DNA from: the human T2T-CHM13v2.0 reference genome, Homo sapiens
DNA length: 64,000 bases
Assembly (NCBI RefSeq): GCF_009914755.1
Contig: NC_060930.1
Reading direction: 5' to 3' (one strand)
The position numbers were made by a program, and so were the translations under genes. Below, in pieces: positions 27,126 to 50,981 of this stretch (position 1 is its first letter; the number at the start of each line of letters is the position of its first letter). The notes under the pieces were generated by a model. It made no database searches. It saw nothing but the letters and a program-made list of their open reading frames with translations, and was not told where the DNA came from.

Positions 27126-29574
27126 CATTTATGATGAAAAGTTTACAGACGGAATTATGGAAAGTCTCAGAACAGTGAGATCTACCTGGTTCTACAACCC
27201 TGAGCTGCTGAAGCTTTGCTTCTGAATCACAGAAGCTTCTAGAACAGAGCTTGTTCCACAAACTAACTGATAAATGCCTGCGATATGCCTGGAAATATTC
27301 CACAGGTGACCTTGTGGCCTGCAGTCACATATTGGTGCATCAGCAGGGTTTAGGAGAATGCTAGGGACCAGCTCCAAGTGAGCCCAGTGTTTGAATCTTC
27401 CCTCCTTGCTGGGATGATGGAGTCCCCTTCAGTTGGCAGCTCTCTTGAAATGGAAGGGTCCAGCCCCAGCCCCTCCCCTCCCTGCACTTGTTACCTAGAC
27501 ACTCTTACCTGAGGCCAGGGAGGACCGCAGATCTGGCTCAGATCTAATCTGGTCATAGGATGAGTCTTGGGGCTTGGTAACATTGGTGCCCATGGAAACA
27601 TCAGGGTGACCTGCAGTTCTGTGCCTGGGCCAGGGTGTCAGAACTCGTGATGATGACAGAAGAGAAGCTGCAAACAGACCTCCGTGGCCCACCCCAGGCC
27701 ACCAAGGCACCAAGCAGGAGCAGTTGGGCTCTGGTCCCCAACAAAGAAAGGAGATTTATAGATAAAAGAGTTTCAAGGGGAGAGGTGACTTACCCTTCAA
27801 CAAAGAGAAAATGCCCATTTTGGAGGCAGCATGTGGCTTCAGGGACAGAGCCAGGCTTCCCATCCCTGGGCTCACTGAGACCTAGCTCATGCCCAGAGAC
27901 CACTACTGAGGCCAGTGACTAAGCAGCACATTCTTCCTCATCACACAAGAGGAGGACACAGCCCTCCTGGGGTGGGAAGGCTTCAGTGCCTGGTGCAGCC
28001 CCAGCACTGGGCACAGAGAGATCCTAGCACCTGGAAATGTCATTTCCAAGTCGGGTCATGAGCCAAGCTCCCCAAGGAGCATAAACAACAAACAGGTTGG
28101 ATCCTGGGATTCAGGGAGCCAGCTCTGATGGAAGTGCTCAGGTTGATGCAGCCAAAATAGCCAAGTAACCTTTGCATTGGGATTGAAGTACTTGCTCTGG
28201 TTCTGAGTTGAGAGCCCACCCTCCCCACTTAATCTTTATTTGAGGTGAAATTTACATAACACAAATTAACTAATTTAAAGGGCACAGTTCTGCCTCACTT
28301 AGCACCTTCACAATGTTGTGCAACCACCACCTCTATCTGGTTCCAAAATATTTACATACCCCCATAAGAAAGCCTTTTACCTGTTAGCAGTTACTCCCCT
28401 TGTCTTCCTCCTCCCAGCTCTTGGCAACCCCATCTACCTTCCATTTCTGCACATTCACCTATTCTGGACATGTCCTATTAATGGAATCAGACCCTCTGTG
28501 ATTTTTTGTCTGTTTCTTTCACTCAGCCTCTTGTTTTCATGGCTTCTTCACAGGGTAGCATGCATAAGAACTTCATTCCTTGCGTTAGATACAAACTAAA
28601 TATGAATATAGAAGCTGTGAAATCAGAAGACCCAAAAGGATTTTCCTAGAAGTCATAGACTACACCTCAGTAATACAGTGGCTCAAATCCTACCTTTAAC
28701 AGAATAACACACCCTCTGCCCATCTACACAGCTGGGGCATTTGTGAACCAGGGGCCAGGGCACAGTTGTGGCTCACCTGCTGGGACTACCCTGGAACCCC
28801 GAATCCTGCTTTCTCCAGGAACCTGGTTTCTGTCCTGTCCCCATTTTCCTGAGAAATGCACCTTCCCCAGTAAAAAATCATGAGGTTTCAAATTCCAGGA
28901 AAATATGTCTCTGAGTTAAAATGGTTTGAAAATGAAAGAAGGAAGAGAGATCTTTTCTCATACCTGGGAAGTCTTGGATAGAATTGGTACCACAGAGGCC
29001 AATGTCCTGAGAGATGAAAGTTCTGCCCACAGGTCAGGAAGCAATCTAACGATGTCTGATTTGAACTGGGTCCTGACAAGAGGTTGTCAATTTCTCTGTG
29101 TCTGTTGGGTCTTCCTGTACTGGGGCAAATTGCATATCAGGGCCCAGGCCTTTATCTGAAACATTGTATCTCAGCATCTCCTGATATCCCCCATCCCACT
29201 GACACTTTTGATTACTCCATCCTGAACAATAACTTCCCTCAAAAAAGAAGGATCTTTAAGACAAGTTGTCACCTGCCTCCCTGTGTGAATCTCCTAGAAT
29301 GACATCCAGCCCAGCCCAGCCCATCTGAGACAGGCAGGAGAGGGAACTCTGGTGGGCATTTTGTCAATAAACTTGAGCATGCCAGGAACTCAAATGTGCT
29401 CCTTTCATTTTGCTGTCAATTGAATTGCATTTTTTTTTTTTTGCAAAAGATGTGGAAGTTCTTGTAAATCTGTGTCAGAAACTTACATTGGATTCACCAA
29501 GCCTAGGGAGATTTGGCTGTGCTTTGTTGGAGCCAATATTTTTCACCCTGGTTTACCCCACCACTGACTTGCTT

Positions 29575-42563: not shown

Positions 42564-46385
<3,822 letters not shown>

Positions 46386-46435
46386 CTCTGCAGACAAGGG
46401 GCCAGAAACCAGAGACAGAAAAAGGACTTTGCATG

Positions 46436-46800
46436 CAGCTTATATACCAGAGTTGAGTTGGAAATCCCCTGCCTGGATTGCTGTGTTTGTCCAGCTTTGC
46501 TGTGCTCTTTGTTCTTGCATGCTCCCATGAATTTTCTTTCACTTTTGCTGGGCAGGAGTTAATAGACAAAGAATGCTTTCTGATCACATACTTCTCTCCT
46601 CAAGCAATCTATTTGCAAACCTCATTCCAAACATGGGATGGTCTTTCTGTGTTGAAAACTTTTCCCTTTTCTCAGGAAAGATCTTTGTCTGTTGAAGCCA
46701 CCTGGATCTATACCCACAGCCCAAACCTAAGCTGCAGATCTCTATGTCTAGCTGTGTCTGTGTCTATGGGAATTCTCGTTCCTTGAATTCCCGGCATATC
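46436..46800 (-). promoter_or_regulatory. UBD proximal promoter: TATA (46440-46446), NF-kB (46461-46470), IRF-E (46532-46546), further kB/GAS-like sites
   Basis: Minus strand TATATAA, GGGGATTTCC and AAAAGTGAAAGAAAA; GGGAATTCTC at 46768. Confidence 0.75.
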
Positions 46801-47668: not shown

Positions 47669-48214
47669 TATTAGTATCCCCGTTAATAAGTAAGAAGCTA
47701 CCTCATCCACAATCATATTAGTAGTAGCTGGTAAGCAAGGGTTCAAACACTAATCTGTATTTCTATAGTCCTTGTATTCTTCCTATATTATTATGTTATT
47801 TCAGTGGGAAAAGGCAGGGAGAAAAGTGCTACTGGAGTTGGGTATTTCCAGCATGGGGTTACTGTGAGGGCAAATCTAATATACTCTCAGAAAAAACTAA
47901 TTCAGGGGATTCCCTACCCAGAGATGACCTGGATTCTGGGAAATAGTGCCCTTTCAAGAAAACATATGAACAACAAACCTGGACTCTGACCTCTCTCTCT
48001 CTCTTTACTCTTCCCTTCCTATGGGAAATTCCCTCCCTGCCCATAGCCAGGGCCAGGACTGTCCCAGACACCTTGGTGCCCCTTTGCTGACCACAGGCAG
48101 GACTTCATCTTGGGACCTGACCTCCTTGCTTCTTACCCAGTGTCAATCTGACTTTTTTCTGTCTCTCTCTATGTCACAATAAGTTCTTTCAGAGACAGAT
48201 CTCTTTTCATTTGC

Positions 48215-48631
48215 TGTTTTAGTCTCTTTTGCATACTATAAAGGAATACTTGAGGCTGGGTAATTTATAAGGAAAAAAAGTTTAATTGATTCATAGTTCC
48301 TCCAACTATACAAGAAGTATGGCACCAGCATCTGCTTCTGGTGAGGCCTCAAGAAGCTTTTACTCATGGTGGAAGGTGAAGGAGAGCAGGCGTGTCACAT
48401 GGCAAGAGAGGGAGGTAAGAGACAGTGGGAAAAATGCCAGGCTCTTTTAAACAACCAGCTCTCTTGTGAGCTAATGGAGTGAGAACTCATTTATTACAAT
48501 GATGACAGCCCCAGGCCATTCATGAGGGATCTGCCACCACAACCCAAACATCTCCCAGTGGGCCCATTTCCAACACTGGGGGTCACATTTCAACATGAGA
48601 TCTGGAGAGTACAAACATCCAAACTACATCA
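48215..48631 (-). mobile_element. MaLR LTR (MST-type)
   Basis: ATAAAGGAATACTTGAGGCTGGGTAATTTATAA...CACATTTCAACATGAGAT. Confidence 0.8.
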
Positions 48632-48667
48632 TTTACCCCTCTGACAAATTCAGAAAACCAGCTAAAG

Positions 48668-49297
48668 TGTCAGAGGTGTTTGAACCAGAGCAACTCCATC
48701 TTGAATAGGGGCTGGATAAAATAAGGCTGACATCTACTAGGCTGCATTCCCAGGAAGTTAGGCATTCTAAGTCACAGGATGAGAGAGGAGATCAGCACAA
48801 AGTACAGGTTATAAAGACCTTGCAAATAAAAGGAAGCAGTAAAGAAGCCAGCCAAAACCCACCAAAACCAAGATGGCAACGAAAGTGACTTCTGGTCATT
48901 CTCACTGCTCATTATATGCTAAATAAAACATTAACATGCTAAAAAATATTCCCACCAGGGCCATGGCAGTTTACAGATGCCATGGCAATGTCCAGAAGTT
49001 ACTCTATATGGTCTAAAAAGAGGAGGAACCCTCAGTTCCAGGAATTTCCCACTTCTTTCCTGGAAAACTTGTGAATAAGCCACCCCTTGTTTAGTATATA
49101 ATCAAGAAATAACCATAAAAATAGTCAACCAGCAGCCCTCAGGGCTGCTCTGCCTATAAAGTAGCCATTCTTTTTTTCCTTTACTTTCTTAATACGCTTG
49201 CTTTCAGTTTACTCTATGGATTCACCCTGAATTCTTTCTTGTGCAAGATCCAATAACGCTCTCTTGGGGGCTGGATCAGGATCCCTTTCCAGTAACA
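48668..49297 (+). mobile_element. Solo MER41 LTR (MER41B-like)
   Basis: TGTCAGAGG.GTTTGAACCAGAGCAACTCCATCTTGAATAGGGGCTGG start, GTAACA end, TSD AAAG. Confidence 0.9.
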
Positions 49298-49791
49298 AAA
49301 GTAAAAAGATGATGGTATGAAGATCTTGCCAAGTTATAAAACAATTGTGGCGGTTATCTACGAGTGTCCCAATGTGGCCCTGGCTGACGGGATGCTCTTG
49401 GGCCTGTCACTGCCCCCATTGAAGCCTACTTGAAGCCTACTTGGAACAGATGTCTCTTTCTAGTCTCTTTAATAACGTCCATGAAAGAGTTTCTAAACTG
49501 CTTTGAGATCTAGAATATTGCTTCAAAAATGCCAGCCAAACTCAGTCAGAAAGCTAGTGTGAATTCTCATTTATTGGTGATTGGGAAAAAAGTCTACACT
49601 CAAAGAAGAACAGTTTGAAAATACCTACCAAAATTTAACATGGACATACCAAACCAAGACAACCAAATGCCTATCAGTATTAGGGAAATAGGTAACCAAA
49701 TTGTAGAATATCATAAGCAGCATAAATAGAAGGATCATACCTGCAAACAACGATACAGATGAATGTGCTAGAACTTATTGAGTGAAAAAAG

Positions 49792-50358
49792 TGTTAGAAA
49801 CAAATGCTTATTCCACGGTGCCGCAAAGAAATAGCACTCAGACATAAATTCAATTTTCTCAGCAAGGAATTTTTACTTCTATAGAAGGGTGTGACTCGCG
49901 GATGGAGTAATGGCAAGAGCATACCTGGACAAGGGAGGGGAAGGAGTTCTTATTCCTGAGGCAGGTAGCCCCTACTGCTGTGTCGTTCCCCTATTGGCTA
50001 GGTTTGGACCACACAATCTAAGCTAATTCCGATTGGCTATTTTAAAGAGAGCAGGGGTATGAGCCAGAGCGGCAGGGTGGGTAGTTTGGTGGGAAGGGTG
50101 GTTACAGAACAGGTGACTCAGGATGATTCAAATCAAAGCAGGTGGCCGAGGGTGACTCCGGATGGAGCAGGTGACCAGGGGAACAGATATGAACCACTGA
50201 TTAGAACTGACAGGAAAGTTGTTTACTGAAACTAGAGGCAAGAGGGTGAAGAGAACCCGGAAGCTCAACTTTCAAATGGAGAATCAAAGAATAAGAGAGA
50301 TGAATATGCTGACATACTGATTCTTTGAAGAGAATCTTGGAGTTCACTATATCTAACA
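49792..50358 (-). mobile_element. Solo LTR10-family LTR
   Basis: TGTTAG...CTAACA termini, TSD AAAG; minus strand TTCTCTTCAAAGAATCAGTATGTCAGC; internal CAGGTGAC repeats. Confidence 0.75.
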
Positions 50359-50981
50359 AAAGCAAGATGAGTAAGACTACATAAAGTATGATACTCTCCA
50401 TAAATCTCAAAAGCAAGCAAAACTACATAGTGAGACAGAGAAAAAGAGGAACTACTTGAAATTCAGGATATGTCTGCTTTTTAACAAAAATGAAGCCCAA
50501 TCTAAATTTTGATATAAGCTACTTGAAGGAGATTTTCAACAGGAAGTAAGAGGGCATTAGAAGCCCTGATATTATTTCATCTTGCCATATTCAGAATCTG
50601 AAGTTTAACCAAGAGAACTTAATGTTTGTTAAAGCAATTTATTACTTGAGAGACATACCGTATATTCACTTTATTAAAGGTAAAGTAATAATATCTAAAA
50701 CAAATGTTCCAAAGAAAACTAAACATAAGCAAAACTGAATATAGTATCTAGAACTACATATGTAAGCAATAAGGCTCTTATAAAAATGTAAAAACCATGA
50801 GTGTTCATTATGCTACTATTATGTTTTATAGTGTTACATTATATTATTCTATATGGGTTACATTTATTTATCTGTAGTATCAAAGATTATAATAAAAATA
50901 TAATTTAAAATTTTTCATGTTCATATCCTCTAGCTCAGCAATTCTGCTTCTAGGAACTTATCCTATTAGTACTCTTTTGGT

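What the first reader, a model, noticed from the sequence alone, without database searches (positions are those of the whole stretch)
49030..49070. MER41 LTR upstream of UBD carries a GAS-NF-kB-GAS composite: candidate ERV-derived IFN-gamma/TNF synergy enhancer
Seen: TTCCAGGAA (49036-49044) and TTCCTGGAA (49057-49065) are tandem GAS sites. GGAATTTCCC (49041-49050; GGGAAATTCC on minus) is a perfect kB site overlapping the first. They lie about 2.6 kb upstream of the UBD start. Known: MER41 LTRs with tandem GAS motifs act as STAT1-bound IFN-gamma enhancers (e.g. at AIM2), and UBD is synergistically induced by IFN-gamma and TNF. Inference: the consensus as I recall it reads GGAATTGCCC, so a copy-specific change may have perfected the kB site, making this a co-opted primate-specific enhancer.
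Basis: partly seen in the sequence, partly recalled or inferred. Interest (0 to 1): 0.75.

Follow-up and report, generated by a model that had tools for sequence, protein, structure and literature searches.

The report
Retroviral LTR with STAT/NF-kB sites near UBD
An old retroviral leftover 2.6 kb upstream of the immune gene UBD keeps its family's two interferon-response sites and has gained, by one private base change, a perfect NF-kB site, which makes it a plausible but untested and probably dispensable extra enhancer.

Summary

They lie in a complete 630-bp solo LTR (48668-49297, TG..CA ends, AAAG duplicated on both sides). The LTR belongs to a family with thousands of copies. That family includes the tandem-GAS fragment upstream of AIM2.

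Both GAS sites are inherited. The kB site comes from a G>T at 49047: among 30 aligned copies only this one has T and 28 have G. Genome-wide counts are G 188, T 10, A 10, C 13.

The family-level idea is already in print. PMC12212084 places a RELA motif at MER41B positions 378-387, which is this decamer. No paper searched links MER41 to UBD.

Function was not tested here. Three results argue against a necessary role:
- A -2500/+209 reporter that ends before the composite responds 9.55-fold.
- Mouse Ubd, without MER41, is synergistically induced.
- No RELA-bound transposon summit was listed at my recalled coordinates.

Verdict: a new member of a known kind, and a reasonable CRISPR target of modest interest.

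The parts
48668..49297 (+). Complete solo LTR of the MER41 family (MER41B-like), 630 bp, TG..CA ends. Its sense strand is the + strand, so it points away from UBD, which is on the minus strand.
   Evidence: 4128 candidates in the same genome; 40 were scored, at 82-85% identity, 31 of them reaching query base 630 and the other 9 ending at 603-629; this is the only copy in the window; the family includes the tandem-GAS fragment upstream of AIM2. The name MER41 and the subfamily are inferred, because no repeat library was available.
48664..48667 (.). Left target-site duplication, AAAG.
   Evidence: read directly. The same four bases follow the LTR at 49298-49301.
49298..49301 (.). Right target-site duplication, AAAG.
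   Evidence: read directly.
49036..49044 (.). GAS1, TTCCAGGAA (palindromic). Inherited from the family; the central CpG has decayed to CA.
   Evidence: columns 49039/49040 are C19/T9/A2 and G15/A13/T2 among 30 copies. GAS1 is kept as TTCNNNGAA in 23 of 30 copies.
49041..49050 (-). kB decamer, GGGAAATTCC on the minus strand (GGAATTTCCC on +). It overlaps GAS1 by 4 bp and ends 6 bp before GAS2.
   Evidence: It occupies LTR positions 374-383; the same decamer starts mostly at 377-378 in other copies. That matches the 'RELA motif at positions 378 to 387 of the MER41B consensus' of PMC12212084.
49047..49047 (+). The G>T substitution that creates the kB decamer; not shared with related copies.
   Evidence: T in 1, G in 28 and A in 1 of 30 copies. 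G 188, T 10, A 10, C 13 among tandem-GAS copies; the T state needs 10 changes for 10 rows, so the hits are independent.
49057..49065 (.). GAS2, TTCCTGGAA (palindromic). Inherited; the CpG has decayed to TG. Its centre is 21 bp from the centre of GAS1.
   Evidence: columns 49061/49062. GAS2 is kept in 19 of 30 copies, and both sites are perfect TTCCNGGAA in 5 of 30.
49155..49160 (+). TATAAA of the LTR, about 100 bp downstream of the composite. It places the composite in U3 and fixes the LTR's orientation.
   Evidence: read directly. The U3 assignment is inference.
46359..46416 (-). UBD exon 1; transcription start at 46416.
   Evidence: Hub annotation (NM_006398.4).
46460..46469 (-). Promoter-proximal kB site GGGGATTTCC, 44-53 bp upstream of the start. 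Not part of the LTR.
47905..48033 (.). Cluster outside the LTR: kB GGGGATTCCC (47905-47914), GAS TTCTGGGAA (47934-47942) and kB GGGAAATTCC/GGGAATTTCC (48023-48033), at -1.49 to -1.62 kb. It lies inside the published 2.5-kb reporter.
   Evidence: the stretch is nearly unique, with one 77% paralogue; both kB sites are imperfect in that paralogue.

Best explanation
Shown: a complete solo LTR of the MER41 family (MER41B-like) sits 2.25-2.88 kb upstream of UBD and points away from it. Its U3 region keeps the family's ancestral pair of GAS sites, 21 bp apart. One G>T change at 49047, not shared with related copies, turned the family's non-kB word GGAATTGCCC into the canonical kB decamer GGAATTTCCC.

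Inferred mechanism: after IFN-gamma, STAT1 dimers (possibly a tetramer across the two sites), or STAT3 after IL-6-type signals, occupy the GAS pair. After TNF, p50/p65 can occupy the kB decamer. Because the decamer overlaps GAS1 by 4 bp, the workable joint state is NF-kB on the decamer plus STAT on GAS2, 6 bp away.

Most likely role: an auxiliary, largely redundant distal landing site that adds at most modestly to UBD induction in primates. The core IFN-gamma/TNF synergy is older than the insertion and is carried by DNA outside the LTR: the kB site at -44, an IRF-like motif near -120, and the kB-GAS-kB cluster at -1.5 kb.
For: - LTR identity, ends and target-site duplication.
- Kinship with the AIM2-upstream tandem-GAS fragment.
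- Ancestral GAS pair and the unshared G>T.
- The decamer is the published RELA-motif position of MER41B, where derived 'RELA motif-words' are contrasted with the consensus word in RELA-bound copies: PMC12212084, passages and the legend of Supplemental Fig. S7D, with the position match.
- MER41B is described as a STAT1-site-bearing subfamily that gives IFN-gamma-inducible enhancers: PMC6292174, passages.
- STAT1 and p65 co-binding sites of signal-integrating genes lie within about 200 bp of each other: PMC6558219, passages.
- Redundancy: the -2500/+209 reporter lacks the composite and still gives 9.55-fold induction; mouse Ubd shows synergy; three other kB positions lie nearer the gene.
Against: - No binding, chromatin or deletion data for this copy were available here.
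- The copy is absent from the human sheet of Table S7 of PMC12212084, which lists RELA-bound transposon summits in TNF-treated aortic endothelial cells and holds 128 MER41B and 11 MER41A rows. No human entry starts with 29527-29532 or 29559-29564. Those hg19/hg38 coordinates for UBD are recalled, and the cells received no IFN-gamma.
- The 41-bp motif stretch of this copy is no better preserved than the rest of the LTR: 0.80 against 0.83 mean identity to the other copies.
- Only 12 of 30 copies keep both GAS sites, so keeping them is not rare enough to argue for constraint.
- The adjacent RefSeq enhancer feature (49554-50753) does not include the LTR.
- The GAS1/kB overlap could make the new site compete with STAT binding rather than cooperate.
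Confidence: 0.45

Rival explanations
1. Inert relic. The LTR is neutral DNA. The GAS pair is there by descent and the kB site by a chance substitution. The element is closed or unbound in cytokine-treated cells, and UBD induction is driven entirely by the promoter and the -1.5 kb cluster.
For: - Substitutions at this site are common: 33 of 221 tandem-GAS copies differ from G.
- The motif region is not specially conserved in this copy.
- No RELA-bound summit is listed at the recalled coordinates.
- The 2.5-kb reporter works without it.
- No paper links MER41 with UBD or FAT10.
Against: - Both GAS sites are perfect TTCCNGGAA palindromes, which holds for only 5 of 30 copies.
- The element lies 2.6 kb from one of the most strongly IFN-gamma-induced genes.
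- MER41B copies with these motifs are reported to bind STAT1, and RELA-bound copies are enriched for RELA words at this position.
Confidence: 0.35
2. This copy is a co-opted, primate-specific coincidence detector. STAT1 on the GAS sites and NF-kB on the new decamer cooperate here, and this element accounts for much of the IFN-gamma/TNF synergy of human UBD.
For: - The composite is compact, with three sites in 30 bp.
- The kB site was created by a change not shared with related copies.
- At this one family position the two kB-creating transversions outnumber the transition: T+C 23 against A 10, where the family's non-CpG spectrum predicts a 0.66 share for A (P about 3e-5; 16 against 7 and P about 6e-4 with tree-minimum events). 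This hints at retention of kB-creating variants.
Against: - Synergy exists in mouse, which lacks MER41.
- The reporter lacking the composite is induced 9.55-fold.
- GAS1 and the kB decamer overlap by 4 bp.
- Other kB and GAS sites lie nearer the gene.
- No binding data exist for this copy.
Confidence: 0.12
3. The element serves a different input or target. For example, it could mediate STAT3/NF-kB (IL-6 plus TNF) induction of UBD, or act as an inducible LTR promoter or enhancer for transcripts running away from UBD towards the RefSeq enhancer at 49554-50753 or other neighbours.
For: - TTCCAGGAA and TTCCTGGAA fit STAT3 and STAT5 sites as well as STAT1 (established motif knowledge).
- The LTR keeps a TATAAA at 49155-49160 and points away from UBD.
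Against: - No transcript is annotated as starting in the LTR (hub table).
- Nothing here separates STAT3 from STAT1.
- UBD is by far the nearest cytokine-induced gene.
Confidence: 0.08

Closest known systems
MER41B LTRs acting as IFN-gamma-inducible, STAT1-bound enhancers (MER41.AIM2 and others; Chuong et al. 2016). That paper was not held, so it is recalled and known here only through PMC6292174 and PMC12212084.
   Same: Same repeat family. The AIM2-upstream fragment carries the same tandem-GAS frame (C1:158214336-158214368), and 16 of 30 copies match it at E<1e-3. Both lie within a few kb upstream of an IFN-gamma-induced gene.
   Different: The AIM2 fragment carries the ancestral G, so it has no kB decamer. 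It is a roughly 90-bp remnant, whereas the UBD copy is a complete LTR. The UBD copy has no binding or deletion data.
RELA-motif-bearing MER41B copies bound by RELA in TNF-treated human aortic endothelial cells (PMC12212084, Genome Res 2025).
   Same: Same position in the LTR. The paper places the RELA motif at consensus positions 378-387; the decamer starts at 377-378 in most copies and at 374 here. Same principle: derived words, not the consensus word, make the RELA motif (legend of Fig. S7D).
   Different: That work is at family level. UBD does not occur in its text or its nine held supplementary files, and no human summit was listed at the recalled coordinates. The actual motif-words are in a figure I could not see.
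GAS/kB co-binding modules of genes that integrate IFN and NF-kB signals (Irf1, Cxcl10 and others; PMC6558219).
   Same: GAS and kB sites lie well within the roughly 200 bp reported for STAT1-p65 co-bound sites. The target gene, Ubd, is among the top signal-integrating genes in that study.
   Different: Those modules are in non-transposon promoter DNA of the mouse. Here the sites are 2.6 kb away in a primate LTR, and GAS1 physically overlaps the kB decamer.
The classical FAT10/UBD promoter (-2500/+209) with seven predicted NF-kB sites (PMC4542280).
   Same: Same gene, same stimuli (TNF plus IFN-gamma) and same dependence on NF-kB p65.
   Different: The construct ends about 120-150 bp short of the composite (near window base 48916, against 49036-49065). 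It contains only the first 250 bp or so of the LTR, so the composite has never been part of the tested promoter. The exact start site used in that paper was not checked.

Membership tests
MER41 LTR (ERV1-type solo LTR), MER41B-like | Dispersed, multi-copy element of about 630 bp with TG..CA ends | tested here: met
   4128 candidates; 40 were scored, at 82-85% identity, 31 of them reaching query base 630 and 9 ending at 603-629. TG at 48668 and CA at 49297.
MER41 LTR (ERV1-type solo LTR), MER41B-like | Short target-site duplication flanking a solo LTR | tested here: met
   AAAG at 48664-48667 and at 49298-49301.
MER41 LTR (ERV1-type solo LTR), MER41B-like | Homology to the element upstream of AIM2 that the literature calls MER41.AIM2 | tested here: met
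   located the minus-strand HIN exons. Searches found a roughly 90-bp tandem-GAS fragment about 11 kb upstream of them; 16 of 30 copies match it, though the UBD copy itself gave no match there at E<=1e-5. That this locus is AIM2, and the name of the element, are recalled.
MER41 LTR (ERV1-type solo LTR), MER41B-like | Tandem STAT1 (GAS) motifs about 20 bp apart in U3 | tested here: met
   In all, 221 genomic copies share the frame.
MER41 LTR (ERV1-type solo LTR), MER41B-like | Best match to the Dfam/Repbase MER41B consensus rather than to subfamilies A, C-E or G | not testable with these tools
   No repeat library is held, and I built no consensus. The agreement of the decamer position with the published 378-387 is indirect support.
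IFN-gamma-inducible ERV-derived enhancer (Chuong type) | Inducible STAT1 (and IRF1) occupancy with gain of H3K27ac | not testable with these tools
   No ChIP or ATAC data were accessible. PMC6292174 text and its two held supplements do not mention UBD.
IFN-gamma-inducible ERV-derived enhancer (Chuong type) | Deleting the element lowers induction of the neighbouring gene | not testable with these tools
   This is an experiment. Indirectly, a reporter without the composite is still induced 9.55-fold.
STAT/NF-kB composite synergy element | Canonical GAS and canonical kB sites within about 200 bp of each other | tested here: met
   The kB decamer overlaps GAS1 by 4 bp and lies 6 bp from GAS2. The distance criterion comes from PMC6558219.
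STAT/NF-kB composite synergy element | Simultaneous or sequential co-occupancy by STAT1 and p65, and more-than-additive output | not testable with these tools
   No RELA-bound summit is listed at the recalled coordinates in TNF-only endothelial cells. There are no data with IFN-gamma.

The most novel reading that the evidence does not exclude
The kB-creating transversions at this one MER41B position (G>T and G>C) have been preferentially retained across the family, turning a subset of STAT1-responsive LTRs into STAT/NF-kB coincidence detectors. The UBD copy would be one such primate-specific amplifier that raises IFN-gamma/TNF synergy above the ancestral mammalian level.
Probability: 0.12. Interest if true: 0.65.

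Novelty: new member of a known kind. Interest (0 to 1): 0.35.

Why it matters
UBD/FAT10 is a textbook IFN-gamma/TNF synergy gene in the extended MHC. It has roles in antigen processing, inflammation and inflammation-linked cancer. If this LTR contributes, it would be a clean single-locus case in which an inherited retroviral STAT module gained an NF-kB input by one substitution, and a primate-specific layer on an older mammalian response.

It also points to a practical gap. The standard 2.5-kb FAT10 promoter construct stops just short of the composite, so the composite has probably never been assayed.

If the LTR does not contribute, the case is a useful caution: perfect composite motifs in transposons near fitting genes arise readily by descent plus chance.

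Tried and rejected
- **Naming by library.** No Dfam or Repbase library is available, and Chuong et al. 2016 is not held. I tied the family to the AIM2-upstream fragment instead. A first BLAST of the UBD copy against the 20 kb upstream of the AIM2 HIN exons found nothing. At E<=10 it gave only matches of 11-18 bp. A motif scan and BLAST with the other copies (16 of 30 hit) then found the roughly 90-bp fragment.
- **Literature link.** MER41+UBD and MER41+FAT10 as whole words gave 0 papers. MER41+UBD by word start gave 0. UBD+LTR+STAT1+enhancer gave 3 irrelevant papers. UBD+STAT1+enhancer+TNF+IFN-gamma+ChIP-seq gave 1 paper, a mouse study. MER41+FAT10 was not repeated by word start.
- **Choi et al. 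2014** (NF-kB/STAT3 at FAT10) is not held, so the positions of its sites are unknown to me.
- **Constraint on the motif stretch.** None was seen: 0.80 against 0.83 mean identity.
- **T-state copies as a sub-lineage.** Rejected: 10 changes for 10 rows. C-state and A-state copies are partly clustered (6 changes for 13 rows; 7 for 10), and one C pair is identical. I therefore also ran the spectrum test on tree-minimum events.
- **Other copies of the family in the window.** There are none.
- **Not possible here.** Orthologous primate sequence, human polymorphism at 49047, and any ChIP, ATAC or STARR data.

Full report
**Observation**

TTCCAGGAA is at 49036-49044, GGAATTTCCC at 49041-49050 (GGGAAATTCC on the minus strand) and TTCCTGGAA at 49057-49065. 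With the annotated UBD start at 46416, they lie 2620-2649 bp upstream.

As single words the motifs are not enriched in the 64-kb window:
- TTCNNNGAA: 32 against 23.0 +/- 4.9 expected.
- GGGRNWYYCC: 14 against 13.75 expected.
- TTCCNGGAA: 3 against 1.83 expected.

So the case rests on the arrangement and its origin, not on motif counts.

**What the element is**

The stretch 48668-49297 begins with TG, ends with CA, and is flanked on both sides by AAAG (48664-48667 and 49298-49301). These are the marks of a solo LTR with its target-site duplication.

A search of the same genome gave 4128 candidates. Of these, 40 were scored, at 82-85% identity; 31 run to the last query base and the other 9 end at 603-629. 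No other copy lies in the window. A TATAAA at 49155-49160, about 100 bp downstream of the composite, places the motifs in U3. It also shows that the LTR's sense strand is the + strand, so the LTR points away from UBD.

No repeat library was available, and the founding paper (Chuong et al. 2016) is not held. I therefore tied the family to its best-known member by locus. The only minus-strand HIN-domain exons of the chromosome 1 cluster should be AIM2; that gene order is recalled. About 11 kb upstream of them lies a roughly 90-bp fragment with the same tandem-GAS frame. Sixteen of my 30 copies match it at E<1e-3. The UBD copy itself is too diverged to hit it.

PMC6292174 (passages read) describes MER41 as an anthropoid-primate family of 7190 copies. 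It names MER41B as the subfamily that carries STAT1 sites and gives IFN-gamma-inducible enhancers. The subfamily call for the UBD copy remains an inference.

**Ancestral and new parts**

I aligned 30 copies and tallied only the 41 columns around the motifs, without building a consensus. Both GAS sites are inherited. Their centres vary as CG, TG or CA, which is the pattern of CpG decay. In the UBD copy both decays happened to preserve perfect TTCCNGGAA palindromes.

Retention among the 30 copies:
- GAS1 survives as TTCNNNGAA in 23.
- GAS2 survives in 19.
- Both survive in 12.
- Both are perfect palindromes in 5.

Genome-wide counts for the frame TTCNNNGAATT[x]CCC-N6-TTCNNNGAAAAC:

| Base at x | Copies |
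|---|---|
| G | 188 (includes the AIM2 fragment) |
| T | 10 (includes this copy) |
| A | 10 |
| C | 13 |

The reversed-pattern controls gave 0 in every case. With stricter flanks the counts were 180 G against 7 T. The C state also produces a canonical decamer (GGGGAATTCC). One T-state copy and two C-state copies carry AGAA instead of GGAA there and so fail the decamer. That leaves 9 T-state and 11 C-state copies, about 20 in all, with a GAS-kB-GAS composite. The UBD copy is not unique.

**Independence and a family-level oddity**

A tree of 62 copies is star-like. The T state needs 10 changes for 10 rows, as scattered as random labels (500 of 500 shuffles as low), so the T copies are independent hits. 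The C state (6 changes for 13 rows) and the A state (7 for 10) are partly clustered, and one C pair is identical.

From all pairwise non-CpG mismatches in the family, mismatches involving G split as A 0.66, T 0.17 and C 0.18. At the kB site the counts are A 10 against T+C 23 (binomial P about 3e-5). With tree-minimum events they are 7 against 16 (P about 6e-4).

So the two kB-creating transversions are over-represented at this position. This may reflect retention of kB-creating variants. It could equally be a local mutational quirk, leftover subfamily structure, or a limit of my crude spectrum. I report it as a hint only.

In the UBD copy itself the motif stretch is no better preserved than the rest of the LTR: 0.80 against 0.83 mean identity to the other copies.

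**What is already in print**

PMC12212084 (Genome Res 2025; passages and the legend of Supplemental Fig. S7D read) reports a RELA motif at positions 378-387 of the MER41B consensus. It stratifies copies by a consensus word and three derived 'RELA motif-words' in RELA-bound and all instances. In my copies the decamer starts mostly at 377-378, and at 374 in the UBD copy, so this is the same site.

The family-level idea that point changes here create NF-kB sites next to the STAT1 sites is therefore published. The words themselves are in a figure I could not see.

UBD does not occur in that paper or in its nine held supplementary files. Its Table S7 holds 128 MER41B and 11 MER41A RELA-bound summits. 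It lists no human entry beginning 29527-29532 or 29559-29564. Those hg19/hg38 coordinates are recalled, and the cells saw TNF only.

No paper in the searched library holds both MER41 and UBD, or both MER41 and FAT10 as whole words. The search UBD+LTR+STAT1+enhancer gave three irrelevant papers.

**Does UBD need it?**

Three results say no.

1. PMC4542280 (passages read) uses a -2500/+209 FAT10 reporter with seven predicted NF-kB sites. It is induced 9.55-fold by TNF plus IFN-gamma. Position -2500 corresponds to about window base 48916, so the construct holds only the first 250 bp or so of the LTR and stops 120-150 bp short of the composite. The start site used there was not checked.
2. Mouse Ubd is induced 95.6-fold by IFN-gamma, 5.8-fold by LPS and 655-fold by both (PMC6558219, Table 1B). 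MER41 is restricted to anthropoid primates.
3. Other perfect kB decamers lie nearer the gene: at 46460-46469 (-44 to -53), at 47905-47914 and at 48023-48033. A GAS site sits at 47934-47942 between the last two.

The -1.5 kb cluster lies in nearly unique DNA with one 77% paralogue on another chromosome. Both kB sites are imperfect in that paralogue. By eye, the minus strand of 46532-46546 reads as an IRF-like motif about 120 bp upstream of the start; the motif is recalled and was not scored.

**Mechanism**

Shown:
- The anatomy of the LTR and its motifs.
- The descent of the GAS pair from the family.
- The single G>T that makes the kB decamer.

Inferred from established knowledge of STAT and Rel proteins, and from the papers above:
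- After IFN-gamma, STAT1 dimers bind the two palindromic GAS sites. These are two helical turns apart, a spacing that suits tetramer formation.
- After TNF, p50/p65 can bind the new decamer.
- The decamer shares GGAA with GAS1, so those two sites are probably mutually exclusive.
- The productive joint state would then be NF-kB on the decamer plus STAT on GAS2, 6 bp away. That is well within the roughly 200 bp reported for STAT1-p65 co-bound sites.
- The same GAS sequences also fit STAT3, which a paper seen only as a citation links with NF-kB at FAT10.

My estimates:
- About 0.45 that the LTR is an inducible but largely redundant distal site.
- About 0.35 that it is inert.
- About 0.08 that it serves another input or target.

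**Verdict**

This is a new candidate member of a known kind, namely MER41B-type cytokine-responsive LTRs, including the published RELA-motif position.

It is a cheap and reasonable target for deletion and reporter tests, not least because the standard promoter construct ends just before it. Interest is modest.

Still open: primate orthologues, human polymorphism at 49047 (only one haplotype was seen), and all binding and chromatin data.

Noticed in passing
Family level; genome places listed; loci L040-L071: At the MER41 position matching window base 49047, the two kB-creating transversions (T 10, C 13) outnumber the transition (A 10). The family's non-CpG spectrum predicts a share of about 0.66 for A (P about 3e-5 on raw counts, about 6e-4 on tree-minimum events). 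T-state copies are independent hits; C-state and A-state copies are partly clustered.
   Followed up: partly
window 47905-48033: A kB (GGGGATTCCC), GAS (TTCTGGGAA), kB (GGGAAATTCC) cluster outside the LTR lies at -1.49 to -1.62 kb from UBD, inside the published 2.5-kb reporter. The DNA is nearly unique, with one 77% paralogue (G000:C4:73478087-73478367) in which both kB sites are imperfect.
   Followed up: partly
window 46532-46546 (minus strand) and 46460-46469: The proximal UBD promoter has an IRF/ISRE-like run (AAAAGTGAAAGAAAA, read by eye; the motif is recalled) about 120 bp upstream of the start, and a kB decamer at -44 to -53. This is a classic IRF plus NF-kB layout that could by itself explain IFN-gamma/TNF synergy.
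   Followed up: no
window 49554-50753: The RefSeq 'enhancer' feature starts 257 bp beyond the end of the LTR and does not include it. It holds no GGGRNWYYCC match and one loose GAS, TTCTTTGAA at 50321. Its experimental source is unknown to me.
   Followed up: no
G000:C6:29340426-29340458 (about 48 kb before the window start): Another tandem-GAS copy of the same LTR family, in the ancestral G state, lies in the neighbouring part of the extended MHC class I region.
   Followed up: no
window 48747-48756: Within the same LTR, TTCCCAGGAA is a four-base-spacer STAT6-type site followed by an ETS-like GGAAGT. It was read by eye and not compared across copies.
   Followed up: no
window 48200-48660: The DNA directly upstream of the LTR looks like the 3' end of an old LINE-1, judged from recall of the repeat. 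If so, the LTR inserted into or beside another repeat. This was not tested.
   Followed up: no
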